Origin: Candidatus Woesearchaeota archaeon
GTDB lineage: Archaea > Nanobdellota > Nanobdellia > SCGC-AAA011-G17 > JAGVXY01
NCBI GenBank assembly: GCA_018303545.1
Contig: JAGVXY010000010.1
Coordinates: 1,643-65,642 of the forward strand
Length of the DNA stretch: 64,000 nt
Direction of reading: 5' to 3'
Part shown: in pieces, positions 3,867 through 11,153 of the stretch
Layout: every line of letters starts with the position of its first letter
Position numbering within the stretch: position 1 is the stretch's first letter
Notes under the pieces: model-generated
The model's input: the letters and a program-made list of their open reading frames with translations, nothing else
The model's database searches: none
What the model was told of the DNA's origin: nothing
Translations under genes and position numbers: made by a program

Positions 3867-5921
3867 ATGGTGACACTAGGCCGTGATTTATTTAGTCATA
3901 TGAGTAAAGTTAGAGATGGTGAATTGAGGTTCGAGAATATTTTCGAATCATTAAGAAGAATGATTCTTGTCGAAAACAAAGTTGAGAAAATTACTACCAA
4001 CGGCAAATCGACATTTGATTTCGAAGTATTCAGAAAGGGCCGCAAGCATCCAATAGGAATGTATGATGAACTTAATAGTTTAGTTTCTTTCATTAAGGAT
4101 GCCGCAGAAGGCGGTTCTTCCAAAGAGATGGCTTTCGTTTTAGTAGGGGAGCCCGGTAATGGAAAGACCTTCCTGGTTGAATATCTATGTAAGGCTTATC
4201 GTGAATTTTTGAGTGAGCCACAGAATATGAGGTTCTATTTTCAGCTTAATCTTCCGCAGAATATGAAAGGTTACGGCCGTATTGATACCATTGAATCCCA
4301 GACATACGAGGATCCAATGATCTTGGCAATGAATCTTTTCAATACAACTGATGAAAACAAGGAATTTCTTTCTAAGAAAGGATTTAATGATAAGCAGATA
4401 GAAAGGCTATATGAAAACTATAGGTCCCTTGGTGCTGATACAGCATTCGTTTTAAAAGATTTAAAAAATCTTTTCAATGGCGACATGAATCAAATTTTTG
4501 ATTCAATTGAGCTTTTCCCCGTGCCATTAATAGAATCGTTAGGTACAGTTACTGGGAAATATCCTGCCAAGGATAAGATTACATCATCGGCCGCAGATCT
4601 ATTGGGGCAGGAGTCAGTAGGCAGGCTTTTGCACTTGACGAAACCAGGTCACCCCTACCTTTTTGATTTAAGAAAAGGAGCATTAGCAAGGGTTGCTGGT
4701 GGCGGAATACATTTCTGTGATGAGATGTTCAAGAACAAAAAGGATTTAATCCAAGTTTATCTCGGGGTTATTCAAAATCGTACAATTGAGATTGATGGAT
4801 TCAAATGGCCTTTGGATACTTTGATTATCGCTACAAGTAATAACCATGAATTTAATGACTTTAAGGGGCAAAATCAGGAAGCGCCTATTGTTGACCGTTG
4901 CAGAATAGTTTACGTTGGTCACAATACAAATTATTTGCTGCAAGATCAGCTTACTAGATATTGTCTTGGCAGTAAATTAAAGGAAACTTTCTTGAATGAG
5001 AAAATGCATGAGGATCCTAATCTAAACCTGGCTCTCTCGGTTGCAGTTACTTTAACAAGATTGCCTCGTTCAGAAAAGCTGACTCCAGAAGAGACCATGA
5101 AGCTTGCAGCAGGAGAAATTGCTGGTGACAAAAGCATAAAAACATTAGCTGAAGTTGTCGCTACATTGAGTCAAGATCCAGATATCACAAGGAGATTTGG
5201 TCAGAAAGGCATCGGTCAAAGAAATCTCGGCAGAACAATACAATTAATGCTTGAAAGTGCTGAGACTAATGAAGGTAAATGTCTTTATGCAGGTGATGCA
5301 TTCGTTGCTCTTGAGCGTATCGTTTTGGATTATGTTAGCGATGCAAATGAGCGTACAAAATTCCTTGAAGATATTAAGCTAGCAGCAGGGATATTCAAGA
5401 AACAAGTTAGAATAGCAATGTTCAATGCATATATGCAGCAGCCAGATGCAATAAGGCGCGATGTTCTTAATTATGTGAACATGATTATTGGTATCGATGC
5501 GGAGAATTTAGGCCAAGATAAAATGTGGAAATATAAAGATCCACAGACGAACGAAATAAAAGGCCTAAAAATCGATGAAAGATACATCAAAAGTGTTGAA
5601 GAGCGTCTTGGTCTAAAAACAGACACCCAAAGAGAATCATTCAGAGGTTCAATTAGAAAAATATATGGTCAAAAAATGTCTCTAAAACCAGACTATGATT
5701 TTATGGACAATGTGGAGCTGGTCGATGCTGTGACAAATGTCCGTCTGAAATCAGATATAGGCAGCGCAGGCAGTTTAATTGGCGCATTGTCAAACAGATC
5801 CAATGAGGATAATCAGAAGCTTTACGACCGTATGTTGACCACAATGACTCAGAAAATGGGTTACTGCGACACATGTGCAAAGAAGACAATCGAATATTTT
5901 TGCGTAAAGGATGAGGAGTAA
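3867..5921 (+). CDS. prkA: PrkA-family AAA-type serine protein kinase (YeaG-like), paralog 1
   Basis: Walker A VLVGEPGNGKTF. Size ~684 aa. Followed by DUF444 and SpoVR genes as in bacterial yeaG-yeaH-ycgB and haloarchaeal operons. GGGGG SD-like motif 8 nt upstream. Confidence 0.75.
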   Translation: MVTLGRDLFSHMSKVRDGELRFENIFESLRRMILVENKVEKITTNGKSTFDFEVFRKGRKHPIGMYDELNSLVSFIKDAAEGGSSKEMAFVLVGEPGNGKTFLVEYLCKAYREFLSEPQNMRFYFQLNLPQNMKGYGRIDTIESQTYEDPMILAMNLFNTTDENKEFLSKKGFNDKQIERLYENYRSLGADTAFVLKDLKNLFNGDMNQIFDSIELFPVPLIESLGTVTGKYPAKDKITSSAADLLGQESVGRLLHLTKPGHPYLFDLRKGALARVAGGGIHFCDEMFKNKKDLIQVYLGVIQNRTIEIDGFKWPLDTLIIATSNNHEFNDFKGQNQEAPIVDRCRIVYVGHNTNYLLQDQLTRYCLGSKLKETFLNEKMHEDPNLNLALSVAVTLTRLPRSEKLTPEETMKLAAGEIAGDKSIKTLAEVVATLSQDPDITRRFGQKGIGQRNLGRTIQLMLESAETNEGKCLYAGDAFVALERIVLDYVSDANERTKFLEDIKLAAGIFKKQVRIAMFNAYMQQPDAIRRDVLNYVNMIIGIDAENLGQDKMWKYKDPQTNEIKGLKIDERYIKSVEERLGLKTDTQRESFRGSIRKIYGQKMSLKPDYDFMDNVELVDAVTNVRLKSDIGSAGSLIGALSNRSNEDNQKLYDRMLTTMTQKMGYCDTCAKKTIEYFCVKDEE

Positions 5922-5949
5922 CCGATTAAGAAGCTAGAAATGTGGTAAC

Positions 5950-8935: not shown

Positions 8936-8936
8936 T

Positions 8937-11153
8937 ATGACTCCCACAAAAACAGAACTTCGTTCAAATATCAATTCCTTATTGGATGAGATTGCACCAA
9001 AAATTGTTCCTCCTTCAAAGGGTATGCTTTCATTCCAGGATTATCTCGGGCTTTGCGTTGAACAGCCGCAGAAAACTCTTAGAGATATACTCTTATTTTT
9101 TGTCGATGCAATCAAGTATTATGTCCCAGAAGGTCACGACGAATATCCCCATGATGAACATTCTGTAGGTTTTGTAAATTACGATTTCTCTAAACTTTTT
9201 GTTGAAGACTGCGATACAAAATTCTTTGCAGACAGATTATTTGCAAATAAGTTTATGAATTTTATATCTCGACTCAAGGAAAGAGGCCAAATAGACAAAA
9301 TAATGATTTTTCAAGGGCCTTCAGGTACAGGTAAAAGCCGAATGATAGAGAATTTAGCCGCTAAGATTGAGAATTATGCCTCATTGGAAGTAGGGGCGAT
9401 GTATGAAATTGTATGGCAATTAAAATTTGAGGGAACACACAAGAAATCTGAATCGGGCCTAACTTCTATTCATCTGCCTTGCCTTAATCATGAGAATCCA
9501 ATTTTATTTATTCCTCGGGAAGAAAGGAAAAAATTCTTAGATGAGCTGATAAAGGATAAAACTTTTAAAGAACATCTTTTCAATGATTCGTGTTATCAAT
9601 GGGTTTTTACTGACAAACTTTGCACCATTTGTGAATCGGTTGTTAATGCATTATTTAAATCAGAGATATGCAAGACACCTAAAGATATTTACGATTTGAT
9701 TTATGTCAGAAGGCGCGAATTCAATCGAGGTCAGGGCATTGGGATAAGTATATTTAATCCATCTGATAAAATCAACAATGGGATAATAACTAATCCCCAG
9801 AAGCAGGAGTTTCTTAATGTGCTTTTCAATGATAGTAATCTTGTAAGATATATTTGTACTAGTATGGCTGCATCAAACAATGGCGTCCCAATGGTTCAGG
9901 ATATAAAAGGGGAAAATGTTACTCGCCTGATACATTTGCATGGAATAATAAGCGATAAGGTTCATAAAATCGGAGATAGTCACATAGATGAGCGTATACG
10001 TTCTCTGTTCTTTGCTGCGACAAATCCGGAAGATATGTTAGATGAGCGTATAACAAAATTAAAATCTCTTAATTCACGTGTGGATTACATAGGCGTAAAC
10101 TACGTTCTCGATCCGTATGTCGAGGTGGAAATTTATAAAAGTGTTAACAATGAATCAATAGGCAATCTTTTTCTCCCCGGTGTTCTCCTCGCATTTACGA
10201 AGGTTATAGTTTCGACGCGTCTTAACGACCAGCCTAAGATTATCAAAGAATGGATAAAACATCCAAAGAACTATTCTAATTTTACTGATGAAAAGTTATT
10301 TCTACTGAAAATGGAATTATATCGCGGAATGATGCCAGAATGGATAAGCGAAGAGGACCGAAAAAAGTTTACCCCTGACATTAGGAATAGGATTATTCAT
10401 GAATCGGAATGTGAAGGTCTTGAAGGGATTTCTGGGAGAGATTCGATAATCATGTTTGGCGATTTCATGCGAAAATTTGGACGCCGAAAAAAAATTAAAA
10501 AATTAATAACCATGGAGAATGTTCGTTCGTTCTTTATTGGAATGAAAAATCTTAATGTTTCAGAGAAGTTTATTGAGTCTTTAATCCATCATTATGATTC
10601 CCATGTGCTTAAGCAGATAAAGAAATCCTTATACAATGCCAATGAAGAAAATATGGCCCGCGACATTATGAATTATCTTTATTGCCTTCCATTTGAGGAT
10701 ACGGGTTCAAAAATTATGTGCCCATATACCGGGGAAATTATTGAGGTTACTAAAGATTATTTTGCTAATATGGAACTGATAATTCTTGGCAAGGGCAATT
10801 CCGCCTATTTAAAGGATATGCGCATTGATAACTTTAAAACATACCGTACAGAGACTTTGCAGAAAATTAATATTGAGGGCCAAAATATCGCAGAAACCCC
10901 TCAGTTTAAGAGATTGTTTGGACTTTACAAGCACAATCTTGAAGATGATGTTCTCGCTCCGTTCTTTAATAATGATCAGTTTAGAAATGCAATAAAAGAC
11001 TATGGTTCAATCCAGTTTAATACATATGACGATAAGATTAAACGAGATATTGGGTTCATGATGGACAATTTACAGAAAAATTTCAGTTACACTGAAGCTG
11101 GGGCCAAAGAAGTCTGTGTTTACGTTCTTGATAAGTGTCTTGTCAAGCAATAA
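8937..11153 (+). CDS. Second PrkA-like AAA ATPase/kinase paralog (738 aa)
   Basis: Walker A MIFQGPSGTGKSRM near residue 125, the same domain order as PrkA. Starts 1 nt after the spoVR stop. Confidence 0.6.
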   Translation: MTPTKTELRSNINSLLDEIAPKIVPPSKGMLSFQDYLGLCVEQPQKTLRDILLFFVDAIKYYVPEGHDEYPHDEHSVGFVNYDFSKLFVEDCDTKFFADRLFANKFMNFISRLKERGQIDKIMIFQGPSGTGKSRMIENLAAKIENYASLEVGAMYEIVWQLKFEGTHKKSESGLTSIHLPCLNHENPILFIPREERKKFLDELIKDKTFKEHLFNDSCYQWVFTDKLCTICESVVNALFKSEICKTPKDIYDLIYVRRREFNRGQGIGISIFNPSDKINNGIITNPQKQEFLNVLFNDSNLVRYICTSMAASNNGVPMVQDIKGENVTRLIHLHGIISDKVHKIGDSHIDERIRSLFFAATNPEDMLDERITKLKSLNSRVDYIGVNYVLDPYVEVEIYKSVNNESIGNLFLPGVLLAFTKVIVSTRLNDQPKIIKEWIKHPKNYSNFTDEKLFLLKMELYRGMMPEWISEEDRKKFTPDIRNRIIHESECEGLEGISGRDSIIMFGDFMRKFGRRKKIKKLITMENVRSFFIGMKNLNVSEKFIESLIHHYDSHVLKQIKKSLYNANEENMARDIMNYLYCLPFEDTGSKIMCPYTGEIIEVTKDYFANMELIILGKGNSAYLKDMRIDNFKTYRTETLQKINIEGQNIAETPQFKRLFGLYKHNLEDDVLAPFFNNDQFRNAIKDYGSIQFNTYDDKIKRDIGFMMDNLQKNFSYTEAGAKEVCVYVLDKCLVKQ

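What the first reader, a model, noticed from the sequence alone, without database searches (positions are those of the whole stretch)
3867..11153. PrkA - DUF444(YeaH) - SpoVR - second PrkA module directly downstream of mre11-rad50 in a reduced archaeal genome
- Four consecutive co-directional genes reproduce the yeaG-yeaH-ycgB stress/sporulation module, with a second PrkA-like AAA protein.
- The visible motifs are GEPGNGKTF, the vWA motif DYSGSM, NEGWASYWHE and GPSGTGKSR.
- Similar four-gene sets exist in some bacteria and haloarchaea, but their function is still unclear.
- Finding one in a very AT-rich, gene-poor archaeon argues for an important conserved role.
- The region looks somewhat GC-richer than the neighbouring rad50, hinting at acquisition.
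Basis: partly seen in the sequence, partly recalled or inferred. Interest (0 to 1): 0.55.

Follow-up and report, generated by a model that had tools for sequence, protein, structure and literature searches.

The report
Bacterial PrkA–YeaH–SpoVR–PrkA operon in a Woesearchaeote
A tiny-genome (DPANN, Woesearchaeota) archaeon carries an intact copy of a four-gene bacterial stress-response operon of still unknown biochemistry, most likely gained from bacteria, so this is a new host for a known gene set rather than a new system.

Summary
Window 3867-11153 (+) holds four tightly packed genes: PrkA1, DUF444/YeaH-like, SpoVR and PrkA2. All four quoted motifs are present.

The host is a Candidatus Woesearchaeota (DPANN) archaeon.

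The same order, PrkA1-DUF444-SpoVR-PrkA2, occurs in 56 of 83 loci fetched around PrkA2 relatives, nearly all bacterial. Most of the others are cut by contig ends. A related four-gene cluster was described in haloarchaea in 2011.

The window's proteins are 63-72% (PrkA1), about 50%, about 54% and 39-43% (PrkA2) identical to bacterial ones. None of 80 Woesearchaeota-like mre11-rad50 loci carries the module. I therefore favour transfer from bacteria.

The excess lies at first codon positions, and GC3 matches mre11 and rad50.

The module is not unique in small genomes. At least three other DPANN lineages and two Patescibacteria MAGs carry it. Whether Woesearchaeota acquired it once or several times is unresolved, because of long-branch effects.

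The proposed mechanism is inferred, not shown: an AAA+ remodelling machine (a complete PrkA1 ATPase and a divergent PrkA2) with a vWA/MIDAS adaptor and a probably metal-binding SpoVR.

Verdict: a new member of a known kind, of moderate-to-low interest.

The parts
3785..3792 (+). TTTATATA, an archaeal TATA-box-like element in the 138-nt rad50/PrkA1 spacer. A GGGGGG run (3855-3860) lies 6 nt before the ATG. Together they suggest the module has its own promoter and ribosome-binding site.
   Evidence: Read directly from the sequence. Function is inferred, not tested.
3867..5921 (+). PrkA1, 684 aa. It has an AAA+ ATPase N-terminal half and a PrkA C-terminal domain. Motifs: Walker A GEPGNGKT (nt 4146-4169); Walker B IHFCDE (nt 4707-4724); a sensor-1-like TSNN; DRCR arginines; an invariant aromatic loop ESLGTVTGKYPAKDKITSS (nt 4533-4589); and a C-terminal CxxC...C.
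   Evidence: Pfam PF08298 and PF06798. All motif residues are invariant in alignment A5, whose mean column identity is 84% across phyla. Identity to bacterial orthologues is 63-72%.
5950..7311 (+). DUF444 (YeaH/YhbH family), 453 aa. It has a conserved N-terminal segment (DGFPxKI), a Gly/Glu-rich linker, and a C-terminal vWA-like domain with a full MIDAS signature: D282-Y-S284-G-S286 (nt 6793-6810), GGT343, and GTD374GDDWD.
   Evidence: Pfam PF04285 at 2e-34. NCBIfam NF003712 scores 589 bits, above its 421-bit cut-off. The MIDAS residues are invariant in A3. The vWA fold itself is inferred from the motif and from what is known of the Pfam clan; it was not tested here.
7313..8935 (+). SpoVR family protein, 540 aa. 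It is mostly helical with a C-terminal beta domain (residues ~419-538). Invariant His/Asp/Glu residues: H105-x3-H109-x-D111 (nt 7625-7645), E154, and NE298GWASYWH305E (nt 8201-8230).
   Evidence: Pfam PF04293 at 4e-56. Invariant columns come from A2 and A4. The AF2 model has mean pLDDT 74. No solved relative was found by sequence profile or by Foldseek. A metal site is inferred only.
8937..11153 (+). PrkA2, 738 aa, a deep paralogue of PrkA1. Walker A GPSGTGKS is intact (nt 9315-9338). The Walker-B position reads VQD322-I: a single Asp and no DE pair. An invariant Cys/His set (C182, H185, C229, C232) may bind zinc. It also carries a PrkA C-terminal domain.
   Evidence: Pfam PF06798 at 3e-32. 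BLASTP finds no significant similarity to PrkA1, but hhalign of A5 against A1 gives 91% probability over PrkA1 15-328 and PrkA2 41-368. Invariant residues come from A1. The best non-self hits are only 39-43% identical.
11127..11157 (+). A hairpin followed by a T-rich tail, overlapping the PrkA2 stop codon. It may mark the end of the transcription unit. The next gene, tsaC/sua5, starts 34 nt after the stop.
   Evidence: Terminator-like site; sequence. This is a consensus match only.

Best explanation
**Shown**
- Window 3867-11153 is an intact, tightly packed operon: PrkA1, a DUF444 protein (vWA/MIDAS), SpoVR and PrkA2.
- It is of the two-PrkA type that is widespread in bacteria.
- It sits in the chromosome of a Candidatus Woesearchaeota (DPANN) archaeon, between rad50 and tsaC/sua5.

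**Inferred with good support**
- The operon entered this archaeal lineage, or an ancestor within Woesearchaeota, as a whole from bacteria.
- This happened long enough ago for base composition to match the host.
- It has since been kept under purifying selection, because every family-invariant catalytic or ligand residue is retained.

**Inferred mechanism (moderate to low support)**
- The four proteins form one self-contained ATP-driven protein-remodelling or regulatory machine.
- PrkA1 would be the hydrolysing AAA+ motor. It has complete Walker A and B motifs, sensor and arginine residues, and an aromatic pore-type loop.
- PrkA2 would be a divergent partner AAA+ subunit that binds nucleotide but has a non-canonical Walker B. 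It would act in a mixed or stacked ring, or as a regulator.
- DUF444 would use its MIDAS metal site to clamp an acidic residue of a partner or substrate, as vWA partners of MoxR-type ATPases and BchD do.
- SpoVR, with its invariant His/Asp/Glu cluster, would be the metal-dependent effector or client.
- By analogy with E. coli, Shewanella and Bacillus, the output would be adaptation to starvation, osmotic stress or dormancy.
For: **Identity**
- Domain assignments come; motifs.
- The same gene order and similar protein sizes occur in Desulfonema limicola.
- The same order occurs in 56 of 83 loci. Most of the rest are cut by contig ends.

**Host and assembly**
- Archaeal marker genes are present in the window.
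- aCPSF1 and SpoVR match Woesearchaeota-labelled NCBI proteins at 100%. They were seen on 8-9 contigs in several sources (NCBI, JGI, ENA, Logan), the longest 107,066 bp for both.
- A JGI metagenome contig also carries DUF444 to PrkA2 followed by the same downstream genes as the window.

**Transfer from bacteria**
- Identity to bacterial proteins: PrkA1 63-72%, DUF444 ~50%, SpoVR ~54%, PrkA2 39-43%.
- The best 80 of 549 PrkA2-bearing genome loci are 79 bacteria plus one archaeon.
- None of 80 Woesearchaeota-like rad50 loci has any module gene within 10 kb. The closest one (L085) has Sua5 1.3 kb after rad50.
- PMC3102087 reported the cluster in haloarchaea and in no other archaea known at that time.

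**Selection**
- Invariant residues are retained in all four proteins.
- The module is also kept in other small genomes.

**Acting together**
- 1-nt gaps between genes suggest one transcription unit.
- yeaG, yeaH and ycgB show cofitness above 0.7 in six bacteria (10.1101/072470).

**AAA+ motor**
- B. subtilis PrkA hydrolyses ATP, and its Walker A lysine is needed for sporulation (PMC9512850).
- B. anthracis PrkA was modelled as a Clade III AAA+ protein with a pore loop, and forms oligomers when ATP is added (PMC13001217).
Against: - No biochemical activity of any component is settled. Kinase, protease and 'neither' have all been reported for PrkA/YeaG.
- The window's proteins are not equivalogs of the studied E. 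coli and Bacillus proteins, so carrying function over from them is indirect.
- My AF2 model of the PrkA2 N-terminal half is poor (pLDDT below 50). Foldseek gave no significant match for PrkA2 or SpoVR. The complex, the SpoVR metal site and the PrkA1/PrkA2 heteromer are therefore untested.
- Donor and number of transfers are unresolved. NJ trees cluster all the long branches together: four DPANN, one CPR and Bacteroidota (50/50). The window's sister changes with the choice of sites, from Bacteroidota to other DPANN.
- No composition contrast or mobile-element scar marks an insertion.
Confidence: 0.6

Rival explanations
1. Vertical inheritance. The module is an ancient archaeal gene set shared with haloarchaea and lost from most archaea, rather than acquired from bacteria.
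For: - Several DPANN lineages carry it.
- With slowly evolving columns only, the window groups with two other DPANN copies, 50/50.
- No compositional anomaly is seen.
Against: - PrkA1 is 63-72% identical to bacterial proteins from many phyla. In my experience that is far above typical archaeal-bacterial identities for vertically inherited proteins (own knowledge).
- The archaeal copies are nested inside bacterial diversity, together with Bacteroidota and a CPR copy.
- None of 80 related rad50 loci has the module.
- The gene order is the bacterial one. In haloarchaea the two PrkA genes are reported to be adjacent.
- An older single acquisition within Woesearchaeota remains possible. That counts as part of the best explanation, not of this rival.
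Confidence: 0.07
2. Assembly or binning artefact. A bacterial fragment was joined to an archaeal contig.
For: - The closest relatives of all four proteins are bacterial.
- The source is a metagenome assembly.
Against: - Archaeal genes flank the module on both sides within one contig.
- SpoVR and aCPSF1 both occur on contigs of up to 107,066 bp and in assemblies from several sources.
- A JGI contig also carries DUF444 to PrkA2 followed by the same archaeal downstream genes.
- Codon-position composition matches the neighbouring genes.
- The sequence is 28-61% diverged from every bacterial copy found, so no plausible contaminating donor exists.
Confidence: 0.02
3. Kinase signalling. PrkA1 and/or PrkA2 are true Ser/Thr protein kinases, and DUF444 and SpoVR are their regulators or substrates, as in the classical YeaG/PrkA annotation.
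For: - YeaG is reported to phosphorylate itself and casein in vitro, and Price et al. proposed a signalling pathway (10.1101/072470).
- The Pfam name of the C-terminal domain is 'PrkA serine protein kinase'.
Against: - No kinase activity and degenerate Hanks motifs were found in B. subtilis PrkA (PMC9512850).
- No kinase activity was found in B. anthracis PrkA (PMC13001217).
- No Pfam protein-kinase family matched the window's proteins, even at E = 5.
Confidence: 0.12
4. Proteolysis. The PrkA proteins are Lon-like ATP-dependent proteases, and the module degrades specific regulators under stress.
For: B. subtilis PrkA degrades alpha-casein in an ATP-dependent, PMSF-sensitive way (PMC9512850). 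An AAA+ domain with an aromatic pore-type loop is conserved here.
Against: - That activity took 24 h, and no native substrate is known.
- B. anthracis PrkA showed negligible protease activity and was judged to lack active-site residues.
- No peptidase family matched any of the four proteins.
Confidence: 0.15
5. Anti-virus defence island, or a function tied to the neighbouring Mre11-Rad50 DNA-repair genes.
For: Pairings of an AAA+ ATPase with a vWA protein occur in some defence systems (own knowledge). The module lies directly next to mre11-rad50 in the window.
Against: - No PADLOC model matched any of the four proteins.
- The sequences are extremely conserved (84% mean column identity for PrkA1), which I would not expect of defence genes.
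- No Mre11/Rad50 homologue lies near the module in the 82 other loci checked.
- Related rad50 loci lack the module.
Confidence: 0.03

Closest known systems
Bacterial four-gene operon PrkA1-DUF444-SpoVR-PrkA2, for example Desulfonema limicola CP061799 (L002 3787-11337). Also found in Geobacter/Geomonas, Fibrobacter, Bacteroidota, Acidobacteriota and Gemmatimonadota.
   Same: - Same four families in the same order and orientation.
- Near-identical protein sizes: 686/459/523/778 aa there, 684/453/540/738 aa here.
- Same invariant motifs.
   Different: - The host is a DPANN archaeon.
- All four proteins sit on a long branch, roughly 1.4-2 times the bacterial-to-bacterial median distance.
- PrkA2 lacks about 30 residues of a variable loop.
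- The promoter region looks archaeal.
Haloarchaeal signature cluster: two adjacent PrkA genes with DUF444 and SpoVR (PMC3102087).
   Same: The same four families, linked on the chromosome, in an archaeon. Function is unknown there too.
   Different: - In haloarchaea the two PrkA genes are reported to be adjacent. Here they are separated by DUF444 and SpoVR, as in bacteria.
- No named haloarchaeal sequence appeared among the best 120 or 80 hits, or among the 20 cluster representatives I looked up.
- A direct sequence comparison could not be made.
E. coli yeaG-yeaH plus ycgB
   Same: - The same three Pfam families.
- The three genes are strongly cofit, so they act in one pathway (10.1101/072470).
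- From my own recollection of earlier YeaG work, not read here, the genes are linked to nitrogen starvation and stationary phase.
   Different: - There is no second PrkA, and the genes are split into two operons.
- The window's proteins score far below the equivalog cut-offs: 34/576, ~80/396-466 and 99/679 bits.
Bacillus prkA-yhbH and spoVR
   Same: The same families. Roles reported in sporulation and osmotic stress. The AAA+ ATPase activity is required (PMC9512850, PMC13001217).
   Different: - There the context is endospore formation, with a single PrkA.
- The YhbH equivalog TIGR02877 scores 130 bits against a 468-bit cut-off.
- The host here does not form spores.
AAA+/vWA-MIDAS remodelling pairs: MoxR-type RavA-ViaA, CbbQ-CbbO, NorQ-NorD, and Mg-chelatase BchI-BchD. 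This is a functional analogy from my own knowledge.
   Same: The same logic: an active AAA+ ATPase, a degenerate AAA+-like partner, and a protein that has an acidic or Gly-rich linker followed by a C-terminal vWA domain with a complete MIDAS.
   Different: - No sequence membership was shown.
- The PrkA AAA+ domain is a separate family with large inserts and an extra C-terminal PrkA domain.
- SpoVR has no counterpart in those systems.
- The resemblance was not tested structurally.

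Membership tests
PrkA family (Pfam PF08298 AAA_PrkA + PF06798 PrkA C-terminal) | Both domains are detected above the gathering score. | tested here: met
   PrkA1 scores 48.1 and 110.9 bits against cut-offs of 25. PrkA2 meets only PF06798 (113 bits). Its N-terminal half is linked to PrkA1 by hhalign at 91% probability, and its homologues carry precomputed PF08298 hits.
AAA+ ATPase (catalytically competent) | Walker A GxxGxGK[ST], Walker B hhhhDE, a sensor-1 polar residue, and an arginine finger. 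| tested here: met
   PrkA1 has GEPGNGKT, IHFCDE, TSNN and DRCR, all invariant in A5. PrkA2 has an intact Walker A, but its Walker-B position is M/Q-D with no Glu, so this feature is inconclusive for PrkA2.
DUF444 / YeaH-YhbH family, subfamily NF003712 | Pfam PF04285 above threshold and the NCBIfam equivalog above its cut-off. | tested here: met
   PF04285 scores 119.6 bits. NF003712 scores 589.5 bits against a 421-bit cut-off.
vWA domain with MIDAS | DxSxS ... T ... D metal-ion-dependent adhesion site on a vWA fold. | tested here: inconclusive
   The motif residues D282, S284, S286, T343 and D374 are present and invariant. No Pfam VWA model hit even at E = 5, and no structure was predicted for this protein.
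SpoVR family (PF04293) | Pfam model above threshold, with the conserved NEGWASYWHE block. | tested here: met
   191 bits against a 27-bit cut-off. The motif lies at nt 8201-8230.
E. coli YeaG / YeaH / YcgB equivalogs (NF011999, NF003707/8, NF008737) | Score at or above NCBIfam's curated cut-off. | tested here: not met
   Scores are 34.4 vs 576 bits, about 80 vs 396-466, and 98.8 vs 679. The relationship is at family level, not an orthologous equivalog.
Bacillus sporulation YhbH (TIGR02877) | Score at or above the cut-off. | tested here: not met
   130 bits against a 468-bit cut-off.
Two-PrkA four-gene operon (bacterial type) | Order PrkA1-DUF444-SpoVR-PrkA2 on one strand with short gaps. | tested here: met
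   The window has gaps of 28, 1 and 1 nt. The identical order occurs in 56 of 83 loci and in L164 and L166-L168.
Haloarchaeal signature cluster | Two PrkA genes adjacent to each other, plus DUF444 and SpoVR. Specific sequence relatedness to haloarchaeal copies. | tested here: inconclusive
   The same four families are present, but the PrkA genes are not adjacent (compare). No haloarchaeal sequences could be retrieved for comparison.
Hanks-type Ser/Thr protein kinase | Kinase catalytic motifs (VAIK, HRD, DFG) or a Pkinase Pfam hit. | tested here: not met
   No Pkinase-family hit at E up to 5 for either PrkA. The literature reports degenerate motifs in this family. Individual motifs were not inspected.
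Lon-type ATP-dependent protease | A Lon_C Ser-Lys dyad domain. | tested here: not met
   No peptidase or Lon Pfam hit. A structural comparison was not possible because the model was poor.
Known anti-phage defence systems (PADLOC) | A match to any PADLOC model. | tested here: not met
   No hits at E = 0.01 or better for all four proteins.

The most novel reading that the evidence does not exclude
The four-gene PrkA1-DUF444-SpoVR-PrkA2 operon is a self-sufficient dormancy or starvation-survival switch. Ultra-small, host-dependent cells have repeatedly captured and kept it: several Woesearchaeota/DPANN lineages and Patescibacteria/CPR. There it would govern entry into and exit from a quiescent state, for example while the cell is detached from its host. 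Its presence in gene-poor genomes would then mark the minimal set of parts the machine needs, making these proteins the best starting point for reconstituting the long-unknown YeaG/YeaH/YcgB mechanism.
Probability: 0.2. Interest if true: 0.55.

Novelty: new member of a known kind. Interest (0 to 1): 0.3.

Why it matters
- The PrkA/YeaH/SpoVR proteins are widespread and highly conserved, yet their biochemistry is still unknown. This copy extends the two-PrkA operon to DPANN archaea.
- With the copies I found in other DPANN and in CPR genomes, it shows that strongly reduced genomes keep all four genes with every invariant residue. That argues the four proteins work as one unit without other dedicated partners.
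- It is one more case of a whole bacterial operon in a DPANN genome.
- It does not reveal a new kind of system.
- The host is uncultivated, so the find does not by itself make the open mechanistic question testable.

Tried and rejected
- **GC as evidence of transfer.** Per-gene GC1, GC2 and GC3 show the excess is in GC1, and GC3 equals that of mre11 and rad50. Rejected as evidence.
- **Insertion scars.** No flanking direct or inverted repeats and no mobile-element genes.
- **Structure.** The AF2 model of PrkA2 has mean pLDDT 63, with the N-terminal half below 50. The SpoVR model has pLDDT 74. Foldseek against PDB gave nothing below E = 0.18 and 0.9 respectively.
  - A PDB profile search with SpoVR found nothing.
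  - A single-sequence DUF444 search also found nothing.
  - Only weak sequence hits of both PrkA proteins to the 9xip entries, named 'Serine protein kinase'. I could not find the corresponding paper.
- **Defence.** No PADLOC hit.
- **Donor.**
  - NJ trees first gave Bacteroidota/Kapabacteria as sister with 98-100% support. This held after Dayhoff-6 recoding and after removing FYMINK/GARP residues.
  - After I added other DPANN and CPR copies, all long branches clustered together. The window's sister then changed with the choice of sites.
  - I therefore do not name a donor.
- **PrkA2 loop deletion as a shared derived character.** Short forms occur in the window, one other DPANN copy, CPR and unnamed lineages, but not in FCB bacteria or two other DPANN copies. 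Not informative.
- **Link to glutamate dehydrogenase.** Found near the module in only 4 of 88 loci.
- **Link to Mre11-Rad50.** No homologue near the module in the 82 other loci checked.
- **Literature.** In the library search, none of the listed top-ranked papers that mention DPANN, Woesearchaeota or Nanoarchaeota also mentions SpoVR or PrkA.

Full report
**Observation**

The window has four consecutive + strand ORFs at 3867-5921, 5950-7311, 7313-8935 and 8937-11153. The gaps between them are 28, 1 and 1 nt. A 138-nt spacer precedes the first gene and a 34-nt spacer follows the last.

Pfam assigns the following:
- ORF 1: AAA_PrkA plus the PrkA C-terminal domain
- ORF 2: DUF444
- ORF 3: SpoVR
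- ORF 4: the PrkA C-terminal domain

E-values run from 1e-12 to 4e-56.

| Motif | Nucleotides |
|---|---|
| GEPGNGKTF | 4146-4172 |
| DYSGSM | 6793-6810 |
| NEGWASYWHE | 8201-8230 |
| GPSGTGKSR | 9315-9341 |

mre11 (472-1677) and rad50 (1674-3728) lie directly upstream. tsaC/sua5 lies directly downstream.

**Host**

The rest of the window is archaeal. It encodes GatD/GatE, aCPSF1, archaeal SecD and an ATP-dependent ligase. It also has a probable intron-containing tRNA.

The aCPSF1 is 100% identical to an NCBI protein of 'Candidatus Woesearchaeota archaeon'. The next hits are 60-69% identical, and every one that carries a source name is labelled Woesearchaeota, Nanoarchaeota/Nanoarchaeia or simply 'archaeon'. 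The window's SpoVR is likewise 100% identical to 'SpoVR family protein [Candidatus Woesearchaeota archaeon]'.

Both proteins were seen on 8-9 contigs, the longest 107,066 bp, in NCBI, JGI, ENA and Logan assemblies. A JGI metagenome contig (L001) also carries DUF444 to PrkA2 followed by the same downstream genes. A chimeric assembly is therefore very unlikely. 'Reduced archaeal genome' fits a DPANN host, although genome size could not be measured here.

**What the module is**

PrkA1 and PrkA2 are deep paralogues. BLASTP finds no significant similarity between them. A profile-profile comparison aligns their N-terminal AAA+ halves at 91% probability.

The module is not the E. coli or Bacillus type. 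Scores against the NCBIfam equivalogs for YeaG, YeaH, YcgB and YhbH are far below their cut-offs. The DUF444 protein instead belongs to a different equivalog, NF003712, at 589 bits against a cut-off of 421.

The exact architecture is common in bacteria:
- Desulfonema limicola has PrkA1 (686 aa), DUF444 (459), SpoVR (523) and PrkA2 (778) in this order.
- A scan of one genome per GTDB species with a PrkA2 alignment confirmed 549 loci.
- In the 83 loci I held, 56 show exactly this order. Most of the others are cut by contig ends.

A four-gene cluster of the same families was reported in 2011 as a haloarchaeal signature absent from other archaea known then. In that cluster the two PrkA genes are adjacent (PMC3102087).

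**Conservation**

PrkA1 is strikingly conserved, with 84% mean column identity across Desulfobacterota, Acidobacteriota, Bacteroidota, Fibrobacterota and Gemmatimonadota. The following are invariant:
- Walker A and Walker B (DE)
- TSNN and DRCR
- the loop ESLGTVTGKYPAKDKITSS

DUF444 has an invariant MIDAS signature: DxSxS, GGT and GTDGDDWD. SpoVR has invariant H105, H109, D111, E154, E298 and H305. PrkA2 keeps Walker A and a Cys/His set (C182, H185, C229, C232), but has a single Asp where PrkA1 has DE. The window's proteins retain all of these residues.

**Origin**

Identity of the window's proteins to bacterial orthologues:

| Protein | Identity |
|---|---|
| PrkA1 | 63-72% |
| DUF444 | about 50% |
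| SpoVR | about 54% |
| PrkA2 | 39-43% |

In searches of 5.8 billion proteins, the best non-self hits that carry a name are all bacterial.

Eighty metagenomic loci encode Rad50 relatives at 35-44% identity, with 26-47% GC; I take them to be Woesearchaeota-like. None carries any module gene within 10 kb. The closest one (L085) has Sua5 1.3 kb downstream of rad50, so part of the same neighbourhood exists there without the module.

These facts, together with the bacterial gene order, support transfer of the whole operon from bacteria.

- The genes are a little GC-richer (0.354-0.383) than mre11 and rad50 (about 0.32).
- The difference sits at first codon positions.
- GC3 (0.306-0.349) is the same as in mre11 (0.336) and rad50 (0.312). 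Its z-scores against the rest of the window are only 0.6-1.7.

No repeats or mobile-element genes flank the module. The spacer upstream of PrkA1 holds a TTTATATA box and a G-run before the ATG. This fits expression from an archaeal promoter, but it is sequence reading only.

**The module is not unique among small genomes**

An exhaustive HMMER search of 1.84 billion cluster representatives found only 413 PrkA2-like entries. Cluster look-ups on 20 of the top representatives gave source names for some of them:
- Woesearchaeota (two clusters)
- Patescibacteria (two clusters)
- Ignavibacteria (one cluster)

Context look-ups show the complete four-gene operon in further genomes:

| Locus | Evidence for the host |
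|---|---|
| L164, and related L037 | Hef-type helicase-nuclease neighbour; L037 is labelled Woesearchaeota |
| L166 | Woesearchaeota MAG |
| L167 | FtsZ and diphthamide-synthase neighbours |
| L168 and L169 | Patescibacteria MAGs that share several neighbours (a GT2 glycosyltransferase, RecG, glutamate dehydrogenase). L168 has all four genes. In L169 only SpoVR and PrkA2 lie within the fetched stretch. |

Each of these copies is only about 40-65% identical to the window's.

**Phylogeny is unresolved**

Neighbour-joining trees first placed the window with Bacteroidota and Kapabacteria at 98-100% bootstrap. This held after Dayhoff-6 recoding and after removing composition-sensitive residues.

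After I added the other DPANN and CPR copies, all long-branched lineages formed one cluster (50/50). The window's sister then changed from Bacteroidota (all columns, 32/50) to two other DPANN copies (slow columns, 50/50). This pattern is what long-branch attraction produces.

I therefore do not name a donor, and I cannot say whether Woesearchaeota acquired the operon once or several times. A variable-loop deletion in PrkA2 is shared by some but not all of these lineages and does not help.

**Mechanism**

Nothing in the literature I could read settles the biochemistry:
- YeaG, YeaH and YcgB are tightly cofit in six bacteria, with species-specific phenotypes, many on amino-acid nitrogen or carbon sources (10.1101/072470).
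- B. subtilis PrkA hydrolyses ATP, shows slow ATP-dependent casein degradation and has no kinase activity (PMC9512850).
- B. anthracis PrkA has negligible activity of either kind. It was modelled as a Clade III AAA+ protein with a pore loop, forms oligomers when ATP is added, and is needed for sporulation and osmotic tolerance (PMC13001217).

My structure predictions did not help. The AAA+ half of PrkA2 was modelled poorly. Neither PrkA2 nor SpoVR found a significant PDB neighbour. Profile searches of PDB sequences found only the weakly related 9xip entries for the PrkA proteins and nothing for SpoVR. A single-sequence search for DUF444 also found nothing. No PADLOC defence model matched.

From the anatomy I favour one ATP-driven remodelling machine. 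I give the mechanism itself about 35-45% confidence.
- PrkA1 is the hydrolysing AAA+ motor.
- PrkA2 is a nucleotide-binding but catalytically divergent partner.
- DUF444 is a MIDAS adaptor that clamps an acidic residue of a partner or client. This is the logic of MoxR/vWA pairs and of BchI/BchD, which I cite from my own knowledge as an analogy and not as family membership.
- SpoVR is a metal-dependent effector or client.
- The output is adaptation to starvation, stress or quiescence.

The kinase and protease readings remain live rivals.

**The mre11-rad50 adjacency is incidental**

No Mre11/Rad50 homologue lies near the module in the 82 other loci checked, and related rad50 loci lack the module.

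**Verdict**

The finding is real and was correctly identified. It is a new host, a DPANN Woesearchaeote, for a known and widespread bacterial operon type. NCBI already annotates at least its SpoVR with a family name for this organism. None of the listed top-ranked papers on DPANN or Woesearchaeota in the library also mentions SpoVR or PrkA.

The most useful by-product is that several ultra-small genomes, DPANN and CPR, retain the complete four-gene set. This suggests the four proteins form a self-contained unit. Interest is moderate to low.

Noticed in passing
L164 4807-12289; L037 2-5237; L166 1613-8903; L167 4808-12217: Three further DPANN or archaeal lineages carry the same operon. L164, L166 and L167 have all four genes. 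L037 is cut at the contig end and holds DUF444, SpoVR and PrkA2. Neighbours include a Hef helicase-nuclease, diphthamide synthase and FtsZ. Each copy is only about 40-65% identical to the window's.
   Followed up: partly
L168 2321-9561; L169 1-3273: Two Patescibacteria (CPR) MAGs carry the module and share several neighbours: a GT2 glycosyltransferase, RecG and glutamate dehydrogenase. L168 has all four genes, preceded by FtsH. In L169 only SpoVR and PrkA2 lie within the fetched stretch. The operon therefore also persists in ultra-small bacteria.
   Followed up: partly
window 9315-9632 (PrkA2 residues ~127-232): The variable loop between Walker A and the invariant PC..H motif is about 30 residues shorter in the window than in typical bacteria. 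It is similarly short in L167, in CPR copies and in several unnamed lineages. The conserved PCPSHD reads PCLNHE here.
   Followed up: partly
window 11739-12383 (-): A 214-aa protein with a bacterial-type Fis-family HTH_8 domain, like the C-terminus of NtrX or NtrC. It is convergent with tsaC, just after the module. I consider this unusual for an archaeon (own knowledge), and it may be another bacterial import.
   Followed up: no
window 28744-28846 (+): An Rfam tRNA match (45.9 bits) spanning 103 nt that ARAGORN did not call. It is probably an intron-containing archaeal tRNA.
   Followed up: no
window 29823-36687 (-): A run of seven co-directional genes, including a B12-binding radical SAM methyltransferase-like protein (32816-34396). 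These genes have among the lowest GC3 values in the window (0.19-0.24, against a mean of 0.28).
   Followed up: no
window 1674-3728 (+): Rad50 is short, at 684 aa against about 880 aa for the NCBIfam Rad50 models. It keeps a CPTC zinc-hook-like motif. Eighty related loci have a similar length.
   Followed up: no
window 50791-54645 (-): A 1284-aa ORF that I did not annotate. Two other large ORFs (26191-28701 and 56872-58218) had no NCBIfam hit at 1e-10.
   Followed up: no
L009 and L017 (bacterial loci): Some Desulfobacterota contigs carry two tandem copies of the module, or an extra PrkA2 directly upstream of PrkA1. That arrangement would resemble the adjacent PrkA pair reported for haloarchaea.
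   Followed up: no
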